Source of the DNA: Actinomycetota bacterium
GTDB lineage: Bacteria; Actinomycetota; UBA4738; HRBIN12
DNA length: 58,796 nt
Assembly: GCA_052388025.1 (NCBI GenBank)
Contig: JBQTIP010000209.1
Coordinates: 1 to 58,796, forward strand
Reading direction: 5' to 3'
Positions 15,026 through 57,400 of this stretch are shown here, piece after piece (the first letter of the stretch is position 1; the number at the start of each line of letters is the position of its first letter). A program made the translations under genes and the position numbers. Under the pieces are notes generated by a model. The model ran no database searches and was not told where the DNA came from. It saw only the letters and a list, made by a program, of their open reading frames with translations.

Positions 15026-16559
<1,534 letters not shown>

Positions 16560-16703: not shown

Positions 16704-17235
16704 ATCTACAAGTCAAGTTACGAAGGGCTTACGGTGGATGCCTTGGCGCCAGGAGCCGATGAAGGACGCGTCAGGCTGCGAAAAGCTTCGGGGAGCCGCC
16801 GAGAAGGCCGAGATCCGAAGGTGTCCGAATGGGGAAACCCGGCCGGGGTCATGCCCGGTCACCCAGGTCTGAATCCATAGGGCCTGAGGAGGGAACCGCC
16901 CGAACTGAAACATCTCAGTAAGGCGAGGAACGGAAAGCAACCGCGACTCCCCTAGTAGTGGTGAGCGAACGGGGAAGAGCCTAAACCGGCACGGTGTGAC
17001 AGCCCGATGGCGTTGCCGTGCCGGGGTCGTGGGATCCGCGAGAACGCACGTCGGAGCGTTCGGGGAGTTACAAAGACAGCACCTAGCCGAAGGCCATGGA
17101 AAGGGCCGCCACAGACGGTAACAGCCCGGTAGACGAAAGGCGACTGACCTCCCCGCGGAGATCCCGAGTAGCACGGAGCCCGTGGAATTCCGTGTGAATC
17201 TGGAGGGCCCACCCTCTAAGGCTAAGTACTTCCTG

Positions 17236-17283
<48 letters not shown>

Positions 17284-17855
17284 GGGAGGGGAGTGAAATA
17301 GCACCTGAAACCGTGAGCCTACAAGCTGTCGGAGCATCCGTCTGGGTAACCAGGTGGGTGTGACGGCGTGCCTTTTGAAGAATGAGCCGGCGAGTTAGCG
17401 GTGTGCGGCAAGGTTAACCGTTCTCGGGAAGCCGAAGCGAAAGCGAGTCCTAACTGGGCGTCCAGTCGCATGCTCTAGACCCGAAACCGAGTGATCTAGC
17501 CATGGGCAGGCTGAAGCGAGGGTAAGACCTCGTGGAGGGCCGAACCCACCAGGGTTGAAAACCTGGGGGATGACCTGTGGTTAGGGGTGAAAGGCCAATC
17601 AAACTCGGTGATAGCTGGTTCTCCCCGAAATGCCTTTAGGGGCAGCCTCGGGCGTTCAGCAGCGGAGGTAGAGCACTGGTTGGGCTAGGGGGCCTACAAG
17701 CTTACCGACCTCAGCCAAACTCCGAATGCCGTTGCTTCAGAGCCCGGGAGTGAGGCTGCGGGGGCTAAGCTCCGTAGCCGAGAGGGAAACAACCCAGATC
17801 GCCAGCTAAGGCCCCCAAATCCGTGCTAAGTGGAGAAGGATGTGGGATTGCACAG

Positions 17856-17890
<35 letters not shown>

Positions 17891-18816
17891 GAAAGAGTGC
17901 GTAACAGCTCACTGGTCAAGTGGTCCTGCGCCGATGATGTAGCGGGGCTCAAGCACGGTGCCGAAGCTGCGGGATTCGCCGTATGGCCCGGCGCTCACGG
18001 GAAGCCGTGTGCGCCCAGGCCGGCGGATCGGTAGGGGAGCGTTCTCACGCGTGTGAAGCGGCGGGGTAACCCAGCGGTGGACGCGTGAGAAGTGAGAATG
18101 CCGGCATGAGTAGCGAAAGACGGGGGAGGAGCCCGTCCGCCGAATGCCCAAGGGTTCCTGGGGAAGGTTCATCCGCCCAGGGTTAGTCGGGACCTAAGCC
18201 GAGGCCGACAGGCGTAGGCGATGGACGACTGGTTGATATTCCAGTACCACCTCATCCGCGCCCAGGCCGAATCCAGGGCACTAAGGGAACCCCCTTCGGG
18301 GGGCTACCGACCCACCTGGTACTAGGCCAGCGAAGGGGGGACGCAGGAGGGTAGGTCGACCCACGCGATGGTCGTCGTGGGGTAAGTGCGTAGGGGGGTC
18401 CCCCAGGCAAATCCGGGGGGCCGCAACCCTGAGGCACGATGCCGAGCCGCTTTAGGCGAAGCGACTGATCCCAAGCTGCCGAGAAAAGCCTCTAGCGAGT
18501 GGATGAGGTGCCCGTACCCCAAACCGACACAGGTGGGCAAGTAGAGAATACTAAGGCGATCGAGAGAACCCTGGTTAAGGAACTCGGCAAACTACCTCCG
18601 TAACTTCGGGAGAAGGAGGACCACGGTAGGGTGAAGGACCTAGCGTCCCGAGCCCGATGTGGTGGCACAAACCAGGCCCAAGCGACTGTTTACTAAAAAC
18701 ACAGGTCCGTGCTAAGTCGCAAGACGACGTATACGGACTGACGCCTGCCCGGTGCTGGAACGTTAAGGGGAGGGGTTAGCTTCCTTCGGGAAGCGAAGCT
18801 CCGAACCTAAGCGCCA

Positions 18817-18851
<35 letters not shown>

Positions 18852-19556
18852 TCCCGGAGGGATGCCAACCTCCGGCTGCCCCTCTCGCTGGCGACAGCGA
18901 TGAGTGCAGTTGGCTATATGCTGGAAAACCCGAGCATCTCGCGGTACCGGCGATGTCAGACCCCCGGTGTAGGGTAGGTCAATGACCGGTGACAATCCGT
19001 CGAGTGCGGACAATCAGCAGGAAAGGCCAGGACTCGAGCAGTGGATCGTTGGTTTCGTCGACGGTGAGGGCTGCTTTAGCATCCCGATCTTCCTGTGCCG
19101 AACGTGCAAGCTCGGCTGGCAAGTTCAGCCCGACTTCACGGTTACACAGGGTGAGCGGAGCGTGCACGTACTGTACGAGCTGAAGGAGTTCTTTGGATGC
19201 GGCCACGTCTCCATCAACCGGAGACGTGATAACCATCGGGAGCACATGTATCGCTACAGTGTGCGGGCTCTCGATGATCTCACTCGCCGCATCGTCCCGT
19301 TCTTCGAGGCAAATCCACTGAGAACGGCGAAGGCCGATGAATACGCGAAGTTCGCTTCGGTGATTCGGATGATGAGGAAAGCTGAGCAACTCAGCCTCAC
19401 TGGACTGATTCGAATCGCGAAGATCTCGCAGACGATGAATCATCGGAAGCCGTCTCGGTTCCTGGAATCCTCAGAGGCCATACGCCAGCCAGCTCTCGTC
19501 CGACGGGAGAGTTGAAGATATGGTCCGAGCCCCATGGCGACATGGGGGGCGACTCG
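18852..19556 (+). mobile_element. group I-like intron 1 in 23S rRNA (after the E. coli U1931 equivalent), carrying a LAGLIDADG ORF
   Basis: Conserved rRNA ...ACGGTCCTAAGGT stops at 18851 and resumes with AGCGAAATTCCTTGTCGGG at 19557. The insert ends in G. P3 is 18887-92 with 19484-89. P7 is 19476-81 with 19520-25. P9 hairpin with GCGA loop at 19530-47. Confidence 0.85.
18982..19515 (+). CDS. LAGLIDADG homing endonuclease (single motif, I-CreI-like size), intron-encoded
   Basis: 177 aa. Motif WIVGFVDGEGCF. N-terminal DNPSSADNQQER, typical of rRNA-intron LAGLIDADG proteins. The ORF 3' end overlaps the P7-P8 ribozyme core. Confidence 0.85.
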   Translation: MTGDNPSSADNQQERPGLEQWIVGFVDGEGCFSIPIFLCRTCKLGWQVQPDFTVTQGERSVHVLYELKEFFGCGHVSINRRRDNHREHMYRYSVRALDDLTRRIVPFFEANPLRTAKADEYAKFASVIRMMRKAEQLSLTGLIRIAKISQTMNHRKPSRFLESSEAIRQPALVRRES

Positions 19557-19600
<44 letters not shown>

Positions 19601-20140
19601 CAACGACTTGGGCGCTGTCTCAACCAGGGACTCGGCGAAATTGCACTACGAGTAAAGATGCTCGTTACCCGCGACAGGACGGAAAGACCCCGGGACCTTT
19701 ACTGCAGCTTGATGTTGGGTTCTGGCATGTGTTGCGTAGGATAGGCGGGAGGCTTTGAAGCCTCGACTCCGGTCGGGGTGGAGCCAACCTTGAAATACCG
19801 CCCTTCACGTGTTGGGACTCTAACCTTGGCCCGTTATCCGGGTCGGGGACAGCGTCTGGTGGGCAGTTTAACTGGGGCGGTTGCCTCCTAAAAGGTAACG
19901 GAGGCGCCCAAAGGTTCCCTCAGCCTGGTTGGCAATCAGGCGTCGAGTGCAAGGGCACAAGGGAGCTTGACTGCGAGACCGACGGGTCGAGCAGGTGCGA
20001 AAGCAGGGCCTAGTGATCCGACGACCCCTAGTGGTAGGGTCGTCGCTCAACGGCTAAAAGGTACCCCGGGGATAACAGGCTGATCGCTCCCAAGAGTCCA
20101 TATCGACGGAGCGGTTTGGCACCTCGATGTCGGCTCGTCT

Positions 20141-20191
<51 letters not shown>

Positions 20192-20228
20192 AGGCACGCG
20201 AGCTGGGTTTAGAACGTCGTGAGACAGT

Positions 20229-20977
20229 AAGTTGACCGTTGCTGTCGGTAAATCCGGCTAAGTGCTGGGAACACCGTGGATCCCGGGCTACTCGCCTTGT
20301 CAGAGGCAGCTGCTAGCGTGCTGACATGCGCAGTGACAACGCCTCGGGTGCGGTCAATCAGCAGGAAAGGTTGGATGCCTACATAGCGGGATACGTTGAC
20401 GGAGAGGAATCGTTCCACGTCGCCGTCCAGCGGAACCCATCGACGAGAGCCGGATGGCAACTCGTTCCGGAGTTCCACGTCAGCCAGAACGCCGAACGAC
20501 GTCAGGTCCTGGACCTGATCAAGGGACGGCTCGGCTGCGGACGGATCCAGGAGAACCATTGTGGTTCGGCGGACACATCACTGGTGTTCGTTGTTCGGAA
20601 CCGCGAGGACCTCCTGACGAGGGTGATCCCCTTCCTCGAGACGCAGCCTCTTCTGAGCAGCAAGCAGCAGGACTTCCTCGTCTTCGCCGGCATCGTCCGG
20701 GCGATGGGACGAGGGGAGCACCTGAGCTCGGAGGGGTTCCGGTCACTCAGGCGGCGAGCGCTCTCCATGAATGGAGGTGGTCGCTACCGCAGAGTGCATC
20801 GGGTGTAGGTATCCAGAATCCTCAGAGACCATACGCCGGACGCCGCTCCCTCCCCTCGTGCCCGAGGGGGACGGATCACCGCGGCGAAGAGATGGTCCGA
20901 CCTGCATGGCGACATGCAGAGCCGGGCAGAAATGACCCGGCCCCTGCCGAGACAGTCCCGGCGGGGTAACAGAAGTG
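20229..20977 (+). mobile_element. group I-like intron 2 in 23S rRNA (after the E. coli U2604 equivalent), carrying a LAGLIDADG ORF
   Basis: rRNA ...GAACGTCGTGAGACAGT stops at 20228 and resumes with TCGGTCCCTATCCGTCGTGGGCG at 20978. P1: exon GACAGT 20223-28 pairs with GCTGTC 20241-46 (U-G at the splice site). P10: GACCG 20234-38 pairs with 3' exon CGGTC. P3 is 20253-58 with 20835-40. P7 is 20827-32 with 20892-97. P9 with GCGA loop at 20902-19. Terminal G at 20977. Confidence 0.9.
20326..20808 (+). CDS. LAGLIDADG homing endonuclease (single motif), intron-encoded
   Basis: 160 aa. Motif YIAGYVDGEESF. N-terminal DNASGAVNQQER. Alignable along its length with the intron-1 ORF. Confidence 0.8.
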   Translation: MRSDNASGAVNQQERLDAYIAGYVDGEESFHVAVQRNPSTRAGWQLVPEFHVSQNAERRQVLDLIKGRLGCGRIQENHCGSADTSLVFVVRNREDLLTRVIPFLETQPLLSSKQQDFLVFAGIVRAMGRGEHLSSEGFRSLRRRALSMNGGGRYRRVHRV

Positions 20978-21356
20978 TCGGTCCCTATCCGTCGTGGGCG
21001 TAGGAGACTTGAGGGGAGCTGCCCCTAGTACGAGAGGACCGGGGCGGACGTACCTCTGGTGTGCCAGTTGTCGCGCCAGCGGCACGGCTGGTTAGCCACG
21101 TACGGCAGAGATAAGCGCTGAAAGCATCTAAGTGCGAAGCTCGCCTCGAGATGAGGTCTCCCACGGGGTTGACCCGGTAAGGCCCCTCGCAGACTACGAG
21201 GTTGATAGGCCGGAGGTGTAAGCACGGCAACGTGTTGAGCCGACCGGTACTAATAGGCCGAGGACTTGGCTTTTGCTCGCGCTCGCTATCGCGTTCCGAG
21301 GTTCCCTCGGAGCTCGCGCCCTCTTCGGGCCAGCTTGTACAAGGCCCGAGCCAACG

Positions 21357-21474
21357 TTTCGGTGGCCATGGCGGAGGGGAAACACCCGGTCCCATCCCGA
21401 ACCCGGAAGTTAAGCCCTCCAGCGCCGATGGTACTGCCCCGGCGACGGGGTGGGAGAGTAGGTCGCCGCCGGGA
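21357..21474 (+). rRNA. rrf: 5S ribosomal RNA
   Basis: Helix I pairs 21357-21366 with 21465-21474. Conserved CCCGAACCCGGAAGTTAAGC and GGGAGAGTAGG segments. Confidence 0.93.
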
Positions 21475-57214: not shown

Positions 57215-57400
57215 AAAGACGGGGGGCCCGTTTGCCGATACGCGTATAGGCAGCAAGAACAGGGTTGGTCCCGAAAGGGCAAACCGTCGGAAACGGCGGC
57301 ACGCAAAGCTCAGGGCCTTAGCGCCGAGAGGCGAAGGCAGCCGAGCCGTCGAAGGACTGAGAGCCCCCAGCAGGGCCCCCGGTCCCAGGGACCCTGGATT
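57215..57400 (+). ncRNA. candidate structured 5' leader (unclassified) upstream of the CAP-domain gene
   Basis: Three GNRA-capped hairpins: 57263-85 (GAAA), 57284-99 (GAAA) and 57322-33 (GAGA). A possible closing helix pairs GGCCC 57225-29 with GGGCC 57313-17. Some resemblance to ydaO-class motifs (GACGGGGGGCCC, CCGAGCCGTC), but not diagnostic. Confidence 0.3.

What the first reader, a model, noticed from the sequence alone, without database searches (positions are those of the whole stretch)
18852..19556. Group I-like intron with a LAGLIDADG ORF in 23S rRNA domain IV (after the U1931 equivalent)
Universally conserved rRNA ...CGGCCGTAACTATAACGGTCCTAAGGT ends at 18851. It is followed by 705 nt of non-rRNA sequence and resumes with AGCGAAATTCCTTGTCGGGTAAGTTCCGACCTGCACGAATGG at 19557. 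Joined, these restore the helix 69-71 region exactly. The insert follows group I rules:
- The 5' exon ends in U and the insert ends in G (19556).
- U18851 can form a U-G wobble with G18878 at the base of a hairpin (CCGGAGG 18854-60 with CCTCCGG 18869-75).
- P3 pairs GCTGGC 18887-92 with GCCAGC 19484-89.
- P7 pairs GGCCAT 19476-81 with ATGGTC 19520-25. The 3' strand sits in an AGATATGGTCCGA context resembling the P7 3' strand of classical group I introns.
- A P9 hairpin CCCCATG-GCGA-CATGGGG lies at 19530-47.
The P1 exon pairing is weak (3 bp) and I could not find a convincing P10. The ORF (177 aa, WIVGFVDGEGCF) extends into the P7-P8 core. The site is the one I recall as L1931, used by organellar and Thermotoga LSU introns. 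Group I introns in bacterial rRNA genes are rare, and I am not aware of them in Actinomycetota.
Basis: partly seen in the sequence, partly recalled or inferred. Interest (0 to 1): 0.8.

Follow-up and report, generated by a model that had tools for sequence, protein, structure and literature searches.

The report
Group I intron in 23S rRNA
The 705-base insert is a genuine self-splicing-type (group I) intron carrying a LAGLIDADG homing-endonuclease gene at the well-known position 1931 of the 23S rRNA gene; this is an ordinary member of a known kind, though hosts from Actinomycetota do not appear in the literature I could search.

Summary
A 705-nt insert (18852-19556) splits the 23S rRNA gene exactly between E. 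coli U1931 and A1932, and its borders are unambiguous. It encodes a 177-aa single-domain LAGLIDADG protein.

Comparison with 26 homologous inserts from other genomes gives a complete group I fold:
- 92.5% of pair cells form pairs.
- 40 of 77 pairs show compensatory changes.
- 0 of 500 shuffles reach these values.

The fold includes a U·G splice-site pair, a guide sequence GCUGCC complementary to the ligated exons GGU^AGC, a covarying P9.0, and a terminal G.

- Its "P3" (18887-92) is really a local GNRA hairpin (P2). The true P3 5' strand is 18909-14.
- A 3-bp P10 does exist.

Rfam's group I model scores only 24 bits because the ORF sits in the P6 loop. ORF-less relatives score 51-66 bits, above threshold.

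The kind is well known: L1931 introns with LAGLIDADG genes occur in cyanobacteria, Thermotoga, Simkania, CPR bacteria, archaea and organelles. At least 424 hits in species-representative genomes encode this endonuclease family, and 44 of the best 80 are Actinomycetota MAGs.

A paralogous second intron sits at L2593 (20229-20977). Splicing and homing are inferred, not shown.

The parts
18852..19556 (+). Group I intron at 23S rRNA position L1931 (705 nt, 58.4% G+C)
   Evidence: Borders read directly. E. coli register. LSU model insertion. G+C.
18849..18851 (+). P1, 5' exon strand GGU. U18851 is the 5' splice-site U and pairs G·U with G18878.
   Evidence: GGU/GCC pairs in 27 of 27 homologues: U·G 27/27 and both G-C pairs 27/27.
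18854..18875 (+). Distal part of the P1 hairpin: CCGGAGG-GAUGCCAA-CCUCCGG
   Evidence: Pairs fully in the window. RNAalifold predicts a hairpin here in all homologues, with compensatory changes in 5 of 5 pairs (columns 18-22/41-45).
18875..18880 (+). Internal guide sequence GCUGCC. GCC pairs with exon GGU (P1). GCU pairs with 3' exon AGC 19557-59 (P10).
   Evidence: Direct reading. UGCC is invariant in the family. In relatives, intron bases +1/+2 (AG or AA) covary with guide bases CU or UU: G-C 17, A-U 7 (columns 14/47).
18882..18904 (+). P2 hairpin CUC-UCGCUG-GCGA-CAGCGA-U-GAG with a GNRA loop.
Evidence: 9 pairs, 8 with compensatory changes, 92.8% paired (helix 2).
18909..18914 (+). P3 5' strand GUUGGC, pairing with GCCAGC 19484-89
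   Evidence: 99.4% paired, 3 of 6 pairs compensatory (helix 3). Same assignment as Rfam's alignment of the ORF-less relative.
18919..18924 (+). P4 5' strand UGCUGG, pairing with UCAGCA 19014-19 (inside ORF codons N11-Q13). J3/4 is UAUA and J4/5 is AAAA.
   Evidence: Pairs in 27 of 27 homologues but never varies, so there is no covariation evidence (helix 4). The position matches the Rfam consensus.
18930..19009 (+). P5 and its extension. P5 is CCG 18930-32 / CGG 19007-09. P5a is 18938-44 / 18997-19004. P5b is UACC 18945-48 / GGUG 18988-91. The distal part holds the start codon.
   Evidence: RNAalifold prediction. Helices 5-8 are 96-100% paired, and 6 of 14 pairs are compensatory.
18982..19515 (+). 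Homing-endonuclease ORF, 177 aa, single LAGLIDADG_1 domain (motif WIVGFVDGEGCF). It starts in the P5 extension, fills the P6 loop, and its C-terminus encodes P6', J6/7, P7, P3' and P8.
   Evidence: Residues invariant among 31 homologues include A9, Q12, Q13, E14, R15 and S158-R168, which lie over ribozyme core strands.
19020..19032 (+). P6 5' strands: GG 19020-21 (with CC 19469-70) and CCAGGA 19027-32 (with UCCUGG 19460-65). The ORF body is the P6 loop.
   Evidence: helices 9-10: 94-100% paired, 3 of 6 inner pairs compensatory although both strands are coding.
19460..19470 (+). P6 3' strands, followed by J6/7 UCAGA (19471-75)
19476..19481 (+). P7 5' strand GGCCAU, pairing with AUGGUC 19520-25. 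This forms a pseudoknot with P3 and is the expected guanosine-binding helix.
   Evidence: 99% paired but invariant among close homologues (helix 11). In the wider family the two strands change together: GACUAU/AUAGUC, GACUGU/ACAGUC, GACUUU/AAAGUC.
19484..19489 (+). P3 3' strand GCCAGC
   Evidence: helix 3.
19490..19514 (+). P8 hairpin CAGCUCUC...GAGAGUUG
   Evidence: 8 pairs, 6 compensatory (helix 12).
19515..19525 (+). J8/7 (AAGAU) and the P7 3' strand AUGGUC. The motif GAAGAUAUGGUC matches the Rfam group I consensus GAAGAUAUAGUC.
   Evidence: Rfam alignment with posterior probability ~1.0 in this stretch.
19527..19555 (+). P9.0 (GAG 19527-29 / CUC 19553-55) enclosing the P9 hairpin CCCCAUG-GCGA-CAUGGGG (19530-47)
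   Evidence: P9.0 is 100% paired with all 3 pairs compensatory (up to 4 pair types each). P9 is 99.5% paired with 4 of 7 pairs compensatory (helices 13-14).
19556..19556 (+). Terminal guanosine (omega-G) at the 3' splice site
   Evidence: G in 26 of 27 homologues (column 364).
20229..20977 (+). Related second group I intron at L2593 with its own LAGLIDADG ORF (20326-20808). It is context and not part of the finding's coordinates.

Best explanation
The insert is a mobile group I intron at position L1931 of the 23S rRNA gene, carrying a single-domain LAGLIDADG homing-endonuclease gene in the loop of P6.

Inferred mechanism:
1. In the rrn transcript the intron folds into the P1-P9 core.
2. The guide GCUGCC (18875-80) holds the 5' exon end GGU through a U18851·G18878 wobble.
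3. A free guanosine bound in P7 attacks the bond after U18851.
4. P9.0 and P10 (AGC 19557-59 with GCU 18875-77) then bring the terminal G19556 and the 3' exon into the site.
5. The exons are ligated, restoring the H69-H71 strand ...CCUAAGGU-AGCGAAAUU....

The 177-aa protein, presumably as a homodimer, would cut intron-less 23S rDNA around position 1931. Repair from an intron-bearing copy then spreads the intron (homing). The protein may also assist folding as a maturase.

Shown here: the exact site, the fold with covariation, the protein family and the wide distribution of homologues. Inferred: splicing, endonuclease activity and homing.
For: Site and gene integrity
- The site and borders are exact.
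- Without the two inserts the 23S exons total 3109 nt, and the gene matches the LSU model from end to end.

Fold
- RNAalifold, run blind on 27 homologous ORF-trimmed introns, recovered P1, P2, P3, P4, P5, P6, P8, P9.0 and P9. 43 of 82 predicted pairs were compensatory.
- The curated fold including the P7 pseudoknot gives 92.5% paired cells. Shuffled controls give 80.9% and slid controls 36-46%.
- 40 of 77 pairs and 260 cells change on both sides. 0 of 500 shuffles reach any of the measures.
- All helices pair in the window itself.
- Splice-site hallmarks are conserved: U·G in 27 of 27, terminal G in 26 of 27, and UGCC of the guide invariant.

Link to recognised group I introns
- The 3' core matches the Rfam group I consensus (GAAGAUAUGGUC, P3', P9) at E = 6e-4.
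- The ORF-trimmed intron is 79% identical over 254 aligned positions to an ORF-less relative (L002) that scores 51.1 bits, above Rfam's gathering score, at E = 2.9e-12.
- Other ORF-less family members score 59 and 66 bits.

Endonuclease
- Pfam LAGLIDADG_1 at 3.4e-22.
- Solved LAGLIDADG endonucleases match at E down to 1e-36.
- 5073 database homologues were found. The ORF is full length and keeps every residue that is invariant in the 31-sequence alignment.

Independent occurrences
- At least 53 loci from independent assemblies carry an insert with this endonuclease at the same exon junction.
- They include a sister intron in the closest rRNA relative, L007 (95% exon identity).
Against: - Rfam's Intron_gpI model does not reach its gathering score on the insert itself: 24.4 and 23.8 bits against 50.
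- P4, P5 and P7 do not vary among the 27 close homologues, so they have no covariation support within that set.
- In the window, P1 has only 3 exon base pairs. Intron bases +1/+2 (UC) do not pair with the guide, unlike most relatives.
- No expression, splicing or cleavage data exist here.
- One published L1931 intron (Simkania) is reported as unspliced (title cited).
Confidence: 0.9

Rival explanations
1. The ribozyme fold is real, but the element is no longer autonomous. Splicing may need the encoded LAGLIDADG protein as a maturase or a host factor, and/or the endonuclease may have lost cleavage activity. The intron would then be inherited vertically rather than by homing.
For: P1 is weak in the window: 3 exon pairs with a UC/CU mismatch next to them. 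A maturase role is reported for the Thermotoga neapolitana 23S intron protein (review text). The sister intron in L007 suggests some vertical descent.
Against: The ORF is intact. It keeps the GFVDGEG catalytic motif and all family-invariant residues. The family occupies many phyla and several neighbouring sites, which points to recent mobility.
Confidence: 0.2
2. The insert is not spliced. It is either retained in the precursor and cut out by RNases, giving a fragmented 23S rRNA like RNase III-processed intervening sequences, or it is retained as reported for Simkania.
For: Fragmented 23S rRNAs and one unspliced L1931 intron are on record (references cited). Rfam's score is below threshold.
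Against: Selection clearly maintains the elements needed only for splicing chemistry. These are the U·G pair, a guide sequence complementary to both exons, P9.0 covarying in all 3 pairs, the terminal G and the P3/P7 core. The site lies in the H69-H71 region between conserved helices (established ribosome knowledge). RNase III-type intervening sequences are short stem-loops at other sites.
Confidence: 0.05
3. Assembly chimera: intron-containing rDNA from another organism was joined into this contig.
For: rRNA operons are commonly mis-assembled in metagenomes. The intron's G+C (58%) is lower than the window's (68%).
Against: The intron's G+C matches the surrounding rRNA exons (61%). The exon sequence is continuous and the whole gene is full length. 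The closest rRNA relative, from an independent study, has a sister intron at the same site. Dozens of long contigs, up to megabases, show the same arrangement.
Confidence: 0.01

Closest known systems
[quoted passage not shown] C9 and S. lividus C1 (Haugen et al. 2007, PMC1995217)
   Same: They have the same two insertion sites in one 23S gene. Sizes are nearly the same: L1931 666-675 nt with a 162-167 aa protein, and L2593 744-748 nt with a 159-189 aa protein. The window has 705 nt/177 aa and 749 nt/160 aa. In both cases the ORFs run from a peripheral loop into the ribozyme core.
   Different: The host phylum differs. The cyanobacterial L1931 intron is described as lacking P2, whereas this one has a well-supported P2 hairpin.
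Thermotoga L1931 introns (Nesbo and Doolittle 2003; listed in PMC1995217 Table 1)
   Same: L1931 site, 698-700 nt, single-motif LAGLIDADG protein of 162 aa. They are shown to self-splice, and a maturase activity is reported for the protein.
   Different: The host is a hyperthermophile. There is no second intron at L2593. Phylogenetic relation to this intron was not tested.
CPR (Patescibacteria) 23S insertion sequences at 1917/1931/1952/2593 and the endonuclease I-ShaI (PMC11270868)
   Same: LAGLIDADG_1 single-domain proteins sit in group I-like inserts at 1931 and 2593. I-ShaI lies in a 691-nt insert (23IS7; by the order of the listed sites this is 1931, which is my inference). It cuts its insertion site and forms homodimers. 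CPR genomes are among the homologues found here.
   Different: That survey covers CPR bacteria and treats such inserts as rare elsewhere. Here the host group is Actinomycetota. Identity to I-ShaI was not measured.
Archaeal group I introns of subtype IB4 at LSU/1931 and LSU/1923, and IA3 at LSU/2593 (Nawrocki et al. 2018, PMC6125680)
   Same: The insertion sites are the same, and many carry homing-endonuclease genes.
   Different: The domain of life differs. The subtype of the window's intron could not be assigned because no subtype models were available. The window's L2593 intron has a core 72% identical to its L1931 intron, so the two may not follow the IB4/IA3 split.
Simkania negevensis L1931 intron (Everett et al. 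1999; cited in PMC11270868 and PMC1995217)
   Same: L1931 site, 654 nt, LAGLIDADG ORF of 143 aa.
   Different: It is reported as unspliced in mature rRNA. Nothing is known about splicing here.

Membership tests
Group I intron | P1 helix in which the last base of the 5' exon is a U that forms a U·G wobble with the internal guide sequence | tested here: met
   U18851·G18878 flanked by G-C pairs. The pairs are present in 27 of 27 homologues.
Group I intron | Terminal guanosine (omega-G) at the 3' end of the intron, positioned by P9.0 and P10 | tested here: met
   G19556 is G in 26 of 27 homologues. P9.0 (19527-29/19553-55) is 100% paired with all 3 pairs compensatory. P10 is AGC/GCU, 3 bp.
Group I intron | Conserved core of P3-P4-P5-P6 and P7-P3'-P8 with the P3/P7 pseudoknot | tested here: met
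   All helices are present. Overall 92.5% of cells pair and 40 of 77 pairs are compensatory. P3, P6 and P8 covary. P4, P5 and P7 are invariant among close homologues. P7 strands change together in wider relatives.
Group I intron | Match to the Rfam RF00028 covariance model at or above its gathering score (a detection criterion, not a biological definition) | tested here: inconclusive
   The window insert scores 24.4 bits (gathering score 50), E = 6e-4 over 821 nt. Only the 3' half is aligned correctly, because the core is split by a ~430-nt ORF-filled P6 loop between the two P6 strands. An ORF-bearing homologue scores the same (24.9 bits). ORF-less relatives score 51.1, 59 and 66.1 bits. The window core is 79% identical to the 51-bit relative.
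Group I intron | Guanosine-dependent two-step self-splicing | not testable with these tools
   This needs in vitro transcription and splicing, or RNA data from the organism.
LAGLIDADG homing endonuclease (single-domain, homodimeric type) | LAGLIDADG_1 domain above Pfam's curated cutoff | tested here: met
   79.7 bits against a cutoff of 23.1, residues 22-127, covering the full profile.
LAGLIDADG homing endonuclease (single-domain, homodimeric type) | One LAGLIDADG motif ending in an acidic metal-binding residue, in a protein of about 160-190 aa | tested here: met
   The motif W21-I-V-G-F-V-D-G-E29-G-C-F occurs once in 177 aa. Each half of double-domain solved enzymes aligns to the whole protein.
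LAGLIDADG homing endonuclease (single-domain, homodimeric type) | Site-specific cleavage of the intron-less target and dimer formation | not testable with these tools
   This needs purified protein and a 23S rDNA target spanning position 1931.
L1931 lineage of LSU rRNA introns | Insertion between E. coli U1931 and A1932 | tested here: met
   plus the register of the known modified positions 1911/1915/1917/1939.
L1931 lineage of LSU rRNA introns | Structural subtype (IB4 in Nawrocki 2018; 'IC1-like without P2' in Haugen 2007) and common descent with the published L1931 introns | not tested
The presence of a P2 differs from the Haugen description.

The most novel reading that the evidence does not exclude
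This intron may represent a large reservoir of rRNA group I introns in non-CPR bacteria, centred on uncultured Actinomycetota (Acidimicrobiia and relatives), that I found no description of in the literature I could search.

In this reading, one paralogous intron family has spread to a cluster of neighbouring 23S sites by changing its guide sequence and endonuclease. The sites are L1911, L1917, L1923, L1931, possibly L1933, and L2593. The result is 23S genes with two to three or more introns. The endonuclease N-terminus (..NQQER..) is hard-wired into the P5'-P4'-P6 strands of the ribozyme. L1911 would be an insertion site not listed in the surveys I could read.
Probability: 0.4. Interest if true: 0.45.

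Novelty: new member of a known kind. Interest (0 to 1): 0.3.

Why it matters
For this window, the 4.56-kb "23S gene" is a normal ~3.1-kb gene plus two mobile introns. Annotation, rRNA-based phylogeny and primer design need to account for that.

More broadly, introns in bacterial rRNA are usually described as confined to a few thermophiles, intracellular bacteria and CPR lineages. The homologues recovered here show the same L1931 element in many soil and groundwater Actinomycetota MAGs, often as one of several introns.

This extends the host range of a known element class. It also offers a good natural data set for studying how an intron-endonuclease pair retargets to nearby sites. It does not reveal a new mechanism.

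Tried and rejected
- **Rfam at gathering threshold.** It found no group I hit in the window. At E-value threshold the hit is sub-threshold and aligns the 5' half of the model to ORF sequence, which is spurious. I therefore did not use the Rfam alignment for P3-P6 of the window. I used an ORF-less relative and covariation instead.
Rejected.
- **Global MAFFT alignment to E. coli.** It misplaced the second insertion at the 3' end of the gene. BLAST placed it after position 2593.
- **RNAalifold 3'-terminal pairs (columns 322-374).** It cannot draw pseudoknots. These pairs compete with P7 and were discarded.
- **Distal P1 hairpin.** In the MAFFT columns it is only 62% paired with my window-derived register (helix 1), because hairpin lengths differ. 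RNAalifold's register works better.
- **Loose regular-expression scan for P7 strand pairs.** Mostly noise. Only the recurrent combinations were used.
- **Literature.** Searches for Actinobacteria, Actinomycetota or Acidimicrobiia together with rRNA group I introns found nothing relevant. A search for PDB code 5GKK, the best single-domain structural relative, found no paper.
- **Host taxon.** I ran no further search on it. It rests on the evidence set out under "Host" in the full report.
Full report
**What is there**

The window carries one rrn operon: 16S at 15026-16553, 23S at 16711-21273 and 5S at 21358-21474. The 23S match is full length against Rfam's bacterial LSU model but spans 4563 nt.

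Reading 18700-19700 confirms the finding's coordinates. The universally conserved ...CGGTCCTAAGGT ends at 18851 and AGCGAAATTCCTTGTCGGGTAAGTTCCGACC resumes at 19557, with 705 nt between. The borders cannot be slid, because the insert's first base (T) differs from the first base of the 3' exon (A) and its last base (G) differs from the last base of the 5' exon (T).

Alignment to an annotated E. coli 23S puts the insert after the U of GGU. That copy is 2905 nt, so its index is 1932. In the standard numbering this is U1931, as the register of psi1911, m3psi1915, psi1917 and m5U1939 in GUAACUAUAACGGUCCUAAGGU|AGCGAAAUU shows (established knowledge).

The only long ORF on the + strand is 18982-19515 (177 aa). 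It matches Pfam LAGLIDADG_1 over the whole profile (79.7 bits, cutoff 23.1).

**Is it a group I intron?**

Rfam's Intron_gpI model alone does not settle it. It gives no hit at gathering threshold, and 24.4 bits (gathering score 50) at E = 6e-4 when only 821 nt are searched. That alignment is convincing only for the 3' part: J6/7-P7-P3'-P8, GAAGAUAUGGUC and P9. The 5' half of the model is forced onto ORF sequence.

I therefore collected relatives. The endonuclease has 5073 database homologues, the best 75% identical. A scan of one genome per species returned at least 424 confirmed hits. In 53 non-identical loci the endonuclease gene lies in an insert between ...CCTAAGGT and AGCGAAATT.

Several of the same 23S genes also carry ORF-less relatives of the intron at nearby sites, and these pass Rfam's curated threshold:
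- L002: 51.1 bits, E = 2.9e-12.
- L007: 59 bits.
- L013: 66.1 bits.

An ORF-bearing L1931 homologue in L013 scores 24.9 bits, just like the window. The low score is therefore a systematic effect of the ORF splitting the core. With the ORF loop trimmed, the window intron is 79% identical over 254 aligned positions to the 51-bit L002 intron.

**The fold**

I aligned the window intron with 26 close homologues, all 704-735 nt with the same short 3' tail. The ORF interior was removed, and 12 exon bases were kept on each side.

RNAalifold, run without any guidance, predicted P1, a P2 hairpin, P3, P4, P5 with two extensions, P6, P8, P9.0 and P9. 43 of 82 pairs were compensatory.

My curated structure adds the P7 pseudoknot and drops the terminal pairs that compete with it. 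Counted on the same alignment:

| Measure | Curated structure | Shuffled control | Partners slid 1-3 columns |
|---|---|---|---|
| Cells paired | 92.5% | 80.9% | 36-46% |
| Pairs with changes on both sides | 40 of 77 | 28.9 | 13-22 |
| Cells with changes on both sides | 260 | 82.3 | 40-70 |
| Covariation score | 0.336 | 0.124 | 0.06-0.11 |

No shuffle out of 500 reached any observed measure. Because the sequences are related, the shuffle count is not a probability. The slid controls and the number of distinct pair types (up to six per pair in P2, P8 and P9.0) make the case.

All helices pair in the window itself:

| Element | 5' strand | 3' strand |
|---|---|---|
| P1 | 18849-51 | 18878-80 |
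| Distal P1 hairpin | 18854-60 | 18869-75 |
| P2 | 18882-90 | 18895-904 |
| P3 | 18909-14 | 19484-89 |
| P4 | 18919-24 | 19014-19 |
| P5 | 18930-32 | 19007-09 |
| P5a | 18938-44 | 18997-19004 |
| P5b | 18945-48 | 18988-91 |
| P6 | 19020-21 and 19027-32 | 19460-65 and 19469-70 |
| P7 | 19476-81 | 19520-25 |
| P8 | 19490-97 | 19507-14 |
| P9.0 | 19527-29 | 19553-55 |
| P9 | 19530-36 | 19541-47 |

The terminal G is G19556.

**Splice-site logic**

The guide sequence GCUGCC (18875-80) is complementary to the ligated exons GGU^AGC. GCC pairs with GGU and includes the U18851·G18878 wobble (P1). GCU pairs with AGC 19557-59 (P10).

UGCC is invariant in the family, and the U·G pair is present in 27 of 27 homologues. 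In most relatives the first two intron bases (AG or AA) extend P1 and covary with the guide (CU or UU): G-C 17 and A-U 7. The window, its sister L007 and L056 start with UC and lack these two pairs, so their P1 is short.

P9.0 pairs the three bases after P7 with the three bases before the terminal G. It is paired in every sequence and compensatory at all three positions. That is hard to explain unless the terminal G has to be positioned for splicing.

The hairpin at 18854-75, the U·G pair, P7 and P9 are right. The proposed P3 (GCTGGC 18887-92 with GCCAGC 19484-89) is not. Across the homologues it forms in 57% of cells, equal to the shuffle mean, with no covariation. The same bases belong to the P2 hairpin with a GNRA loop, in which 8 of 9 pairs are compensatory. 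The true partner of 19484-89 is GUUGGC 18909-14, the same position as in Rfam's alignment of the ORF-less relative.

P4, P5 and P7 never vary among the 27 sequences, so that set says nothing for or against them. In more distant family members the two P7 strands change together: GGCCAU/AUGGUC, GACUAU/AUAGUC, GACUGU/ACAGUC and GACUUU/AAAGUC.

**The ORF and its overlap with the ribozyme**

The start codon lies in the distal P5 extension. Codons 9-17 (A-D-N-Q-Q-E-R-P-G) are P5', P4' and the 5' strand of P6. The body of the gene is the P6 loop. The last 20 or so codons (..SRFLESSEAIRQPALVRRES*) are P6', J6/7, P7, P3' and P8.

This explains why A9, Q12, Q13, E14, R15 and S158-R168 are invariant in an alignment of 31 homologues. 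It also explains why the endonuclease of the second intron shares the NQQER segment although it is only 35% identical overall. ORFs that extend into the core were already noted for the cyanobacterial rRNA introns.

The protein has one LAGLIDADG motif (GFVDGEG) in 177 aa. Both halves of two-domain solved enzymes such as I-PanMI align to it (E = 1.4e-36). The best single-domain entry is 5GKK (E = 1.2e-31). By analogy with single-domain enzymes such as I-CreI and I-ShaI it should act as a homodimer. This was not tested here.

**Host**

- The flanks have 66-71% G+C.
- The 23S exons sum to 3109 nt.
- A 68-nt insertion after E. coli ~1401 sits where high-G+C Gram-positive bacteria have a characteristic domain III insertion (my recollection of Roller et al. 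1992).
- The closest rRNA exons among the fetched loci belong to MAGs labelled Actinomycetota bacterium (L007, 95%) and Actinobacteria bacterium (L013, 88-91%).

An Actinomycetota host is therefore likely but not proven.

**How it compares with what is known**

L1931 is a classic intron site. Published bacterial examples with single-motif LAGLIDADG genes are:
- Simkania: 654 nt.
- Three Thermotoga species: 698-700 nt.
- Synechococcus C1 and C9: 666-675 nt. These also carry an L2593 intron of 744-748 nt.

The cyanobacterial pairing of L1931 with L2593 is the arrangement seen in this window (705 and 749 nt). CPR bacteria carry LAGLIDADG_1 inserts at 1917, 1931, 1952, 2593, 2604 and 2657, and one such enzyme, I-ShaI, cuts its site and dimerises. 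Archaea have IB4-type introns at LSU/1931 and LSU/1923, and IA3-type introns at LSU/2593.

I found no paper in the searchable library that links Actinomycetota or Acidimicrobiia with rRNA group I introns. That is only absence from that library. In sequence databases they are plentiful: 44 of the 80 best genome hits are labelled Actinomycetota lineages. The rest are Acidobacteriota, Gemmatimonadales, Planctomycetota, Chloroflexi, Gammaproteobacteria, CPR groups and one contig binned as Nanoarchaeota.

**Verdict**

This is a real, well-formed group I intron with an intact homing-endonuclease gene at L1931. It is a new member of a known kind. Its fold and site are shown. Its splicing, endonuclease activity and mobility are inferred from conserved features that have no other known purpose.

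Interest is modest. The host group extends the known range, and the surrounding family shows site-to-site spread, but no new mechanism is involved.

Noticed in passing
window 20229-20977: A second group I intron (749 nt) sits in the same 23S gene after E. coli U2593, the I-CreI site. The exon junction reads GAGACAGU|...G|UCGGUCCC. P1 is GACAGU/GCUGUC. Its own LAGLIDADG ORF is 20326-20808 (160 aa, Pfam 7.4e-17, 35% identical to the first endonuclease). Its ORF-trimmed core is 72% identical to the L1931 intron, and it has a longer 3' tail (GCAGAAAUGAC...GUAACAG). Rfam scores it only 14.6 bits.
   Followed up: partly
L002 3893-4576 and 4598-4932 (ENA ERZ534009, 95-kb contig): A homologous intron whose endonuclease is 72% identical to the window's sits about 20 nt upstream. 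It appears to lie after U1911 (exon GGCGGU|AA...), with a retargeted guide sequence UUGCCGCC. An ORF-less relative follows at L1931/1933. L1911 is not among the insertion sites listed in the surveys I read.
   Followed up: partly
L007 17-255; L013 1264-1517; 18 of 57 loci overall: Many relatives have two introns within the 24 nt between E. coli 1909 and 1931. In 18 of 57 loci the distance between the exon anchors is 985-1533 nt instead of about 730. Examples are an ORF-less L1917 intron in L007 and an ORF-less L1923 intron in L013, both above Rfam's threshold.
   Followed up: partly
window 19006-19032 and 20350-20376: The conserved N-terminal peptide ..A.NQQER.. of both intron endonucleases is encoded by the P5'-P4'-P6 strands of the ribozyme (AAUCAGCAGGAAAGG). 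Its conservation probably reflects RNA constraints rather than protein constraints.
   Followed up: partly
L020, L034, L041, L048, L052, L072 and other loci: A second class of homologous inserts has a long GUAACAG 3' tail. If delimited at U1931|A1932 they do not end in G. Their first bases repeat the exon's AG, so they may really sit after G1933. L020 ends in A under the L1931 reading. The exact sites were not resolved.
   Followed up: no
L038 (1119-nt contig binned as Nanoarchaeota): The same endonuclease family (52% identity), in an insert at the same junction, occurs on a very short contig assigned to an archaeal MAG. This could be a true archaeal intron (see PMC6125680) or a binning error.
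   Followed up: no
window 57268-57353: A c-di-GMP-I riboswitch aptamer: Rfam 64 bits against a gathering score of 35.
   Followed up: no
window 18246-18313, also 16988-17029 and 17061-17096: The 23S rRNA has expansion segments relative to E. coli. The 68-nt segment after E. coli ~1401 lies where high-G+C Gram-positive bacteria have a characteristic domain III insertion (the assignment is from memory).
   Followed up: no
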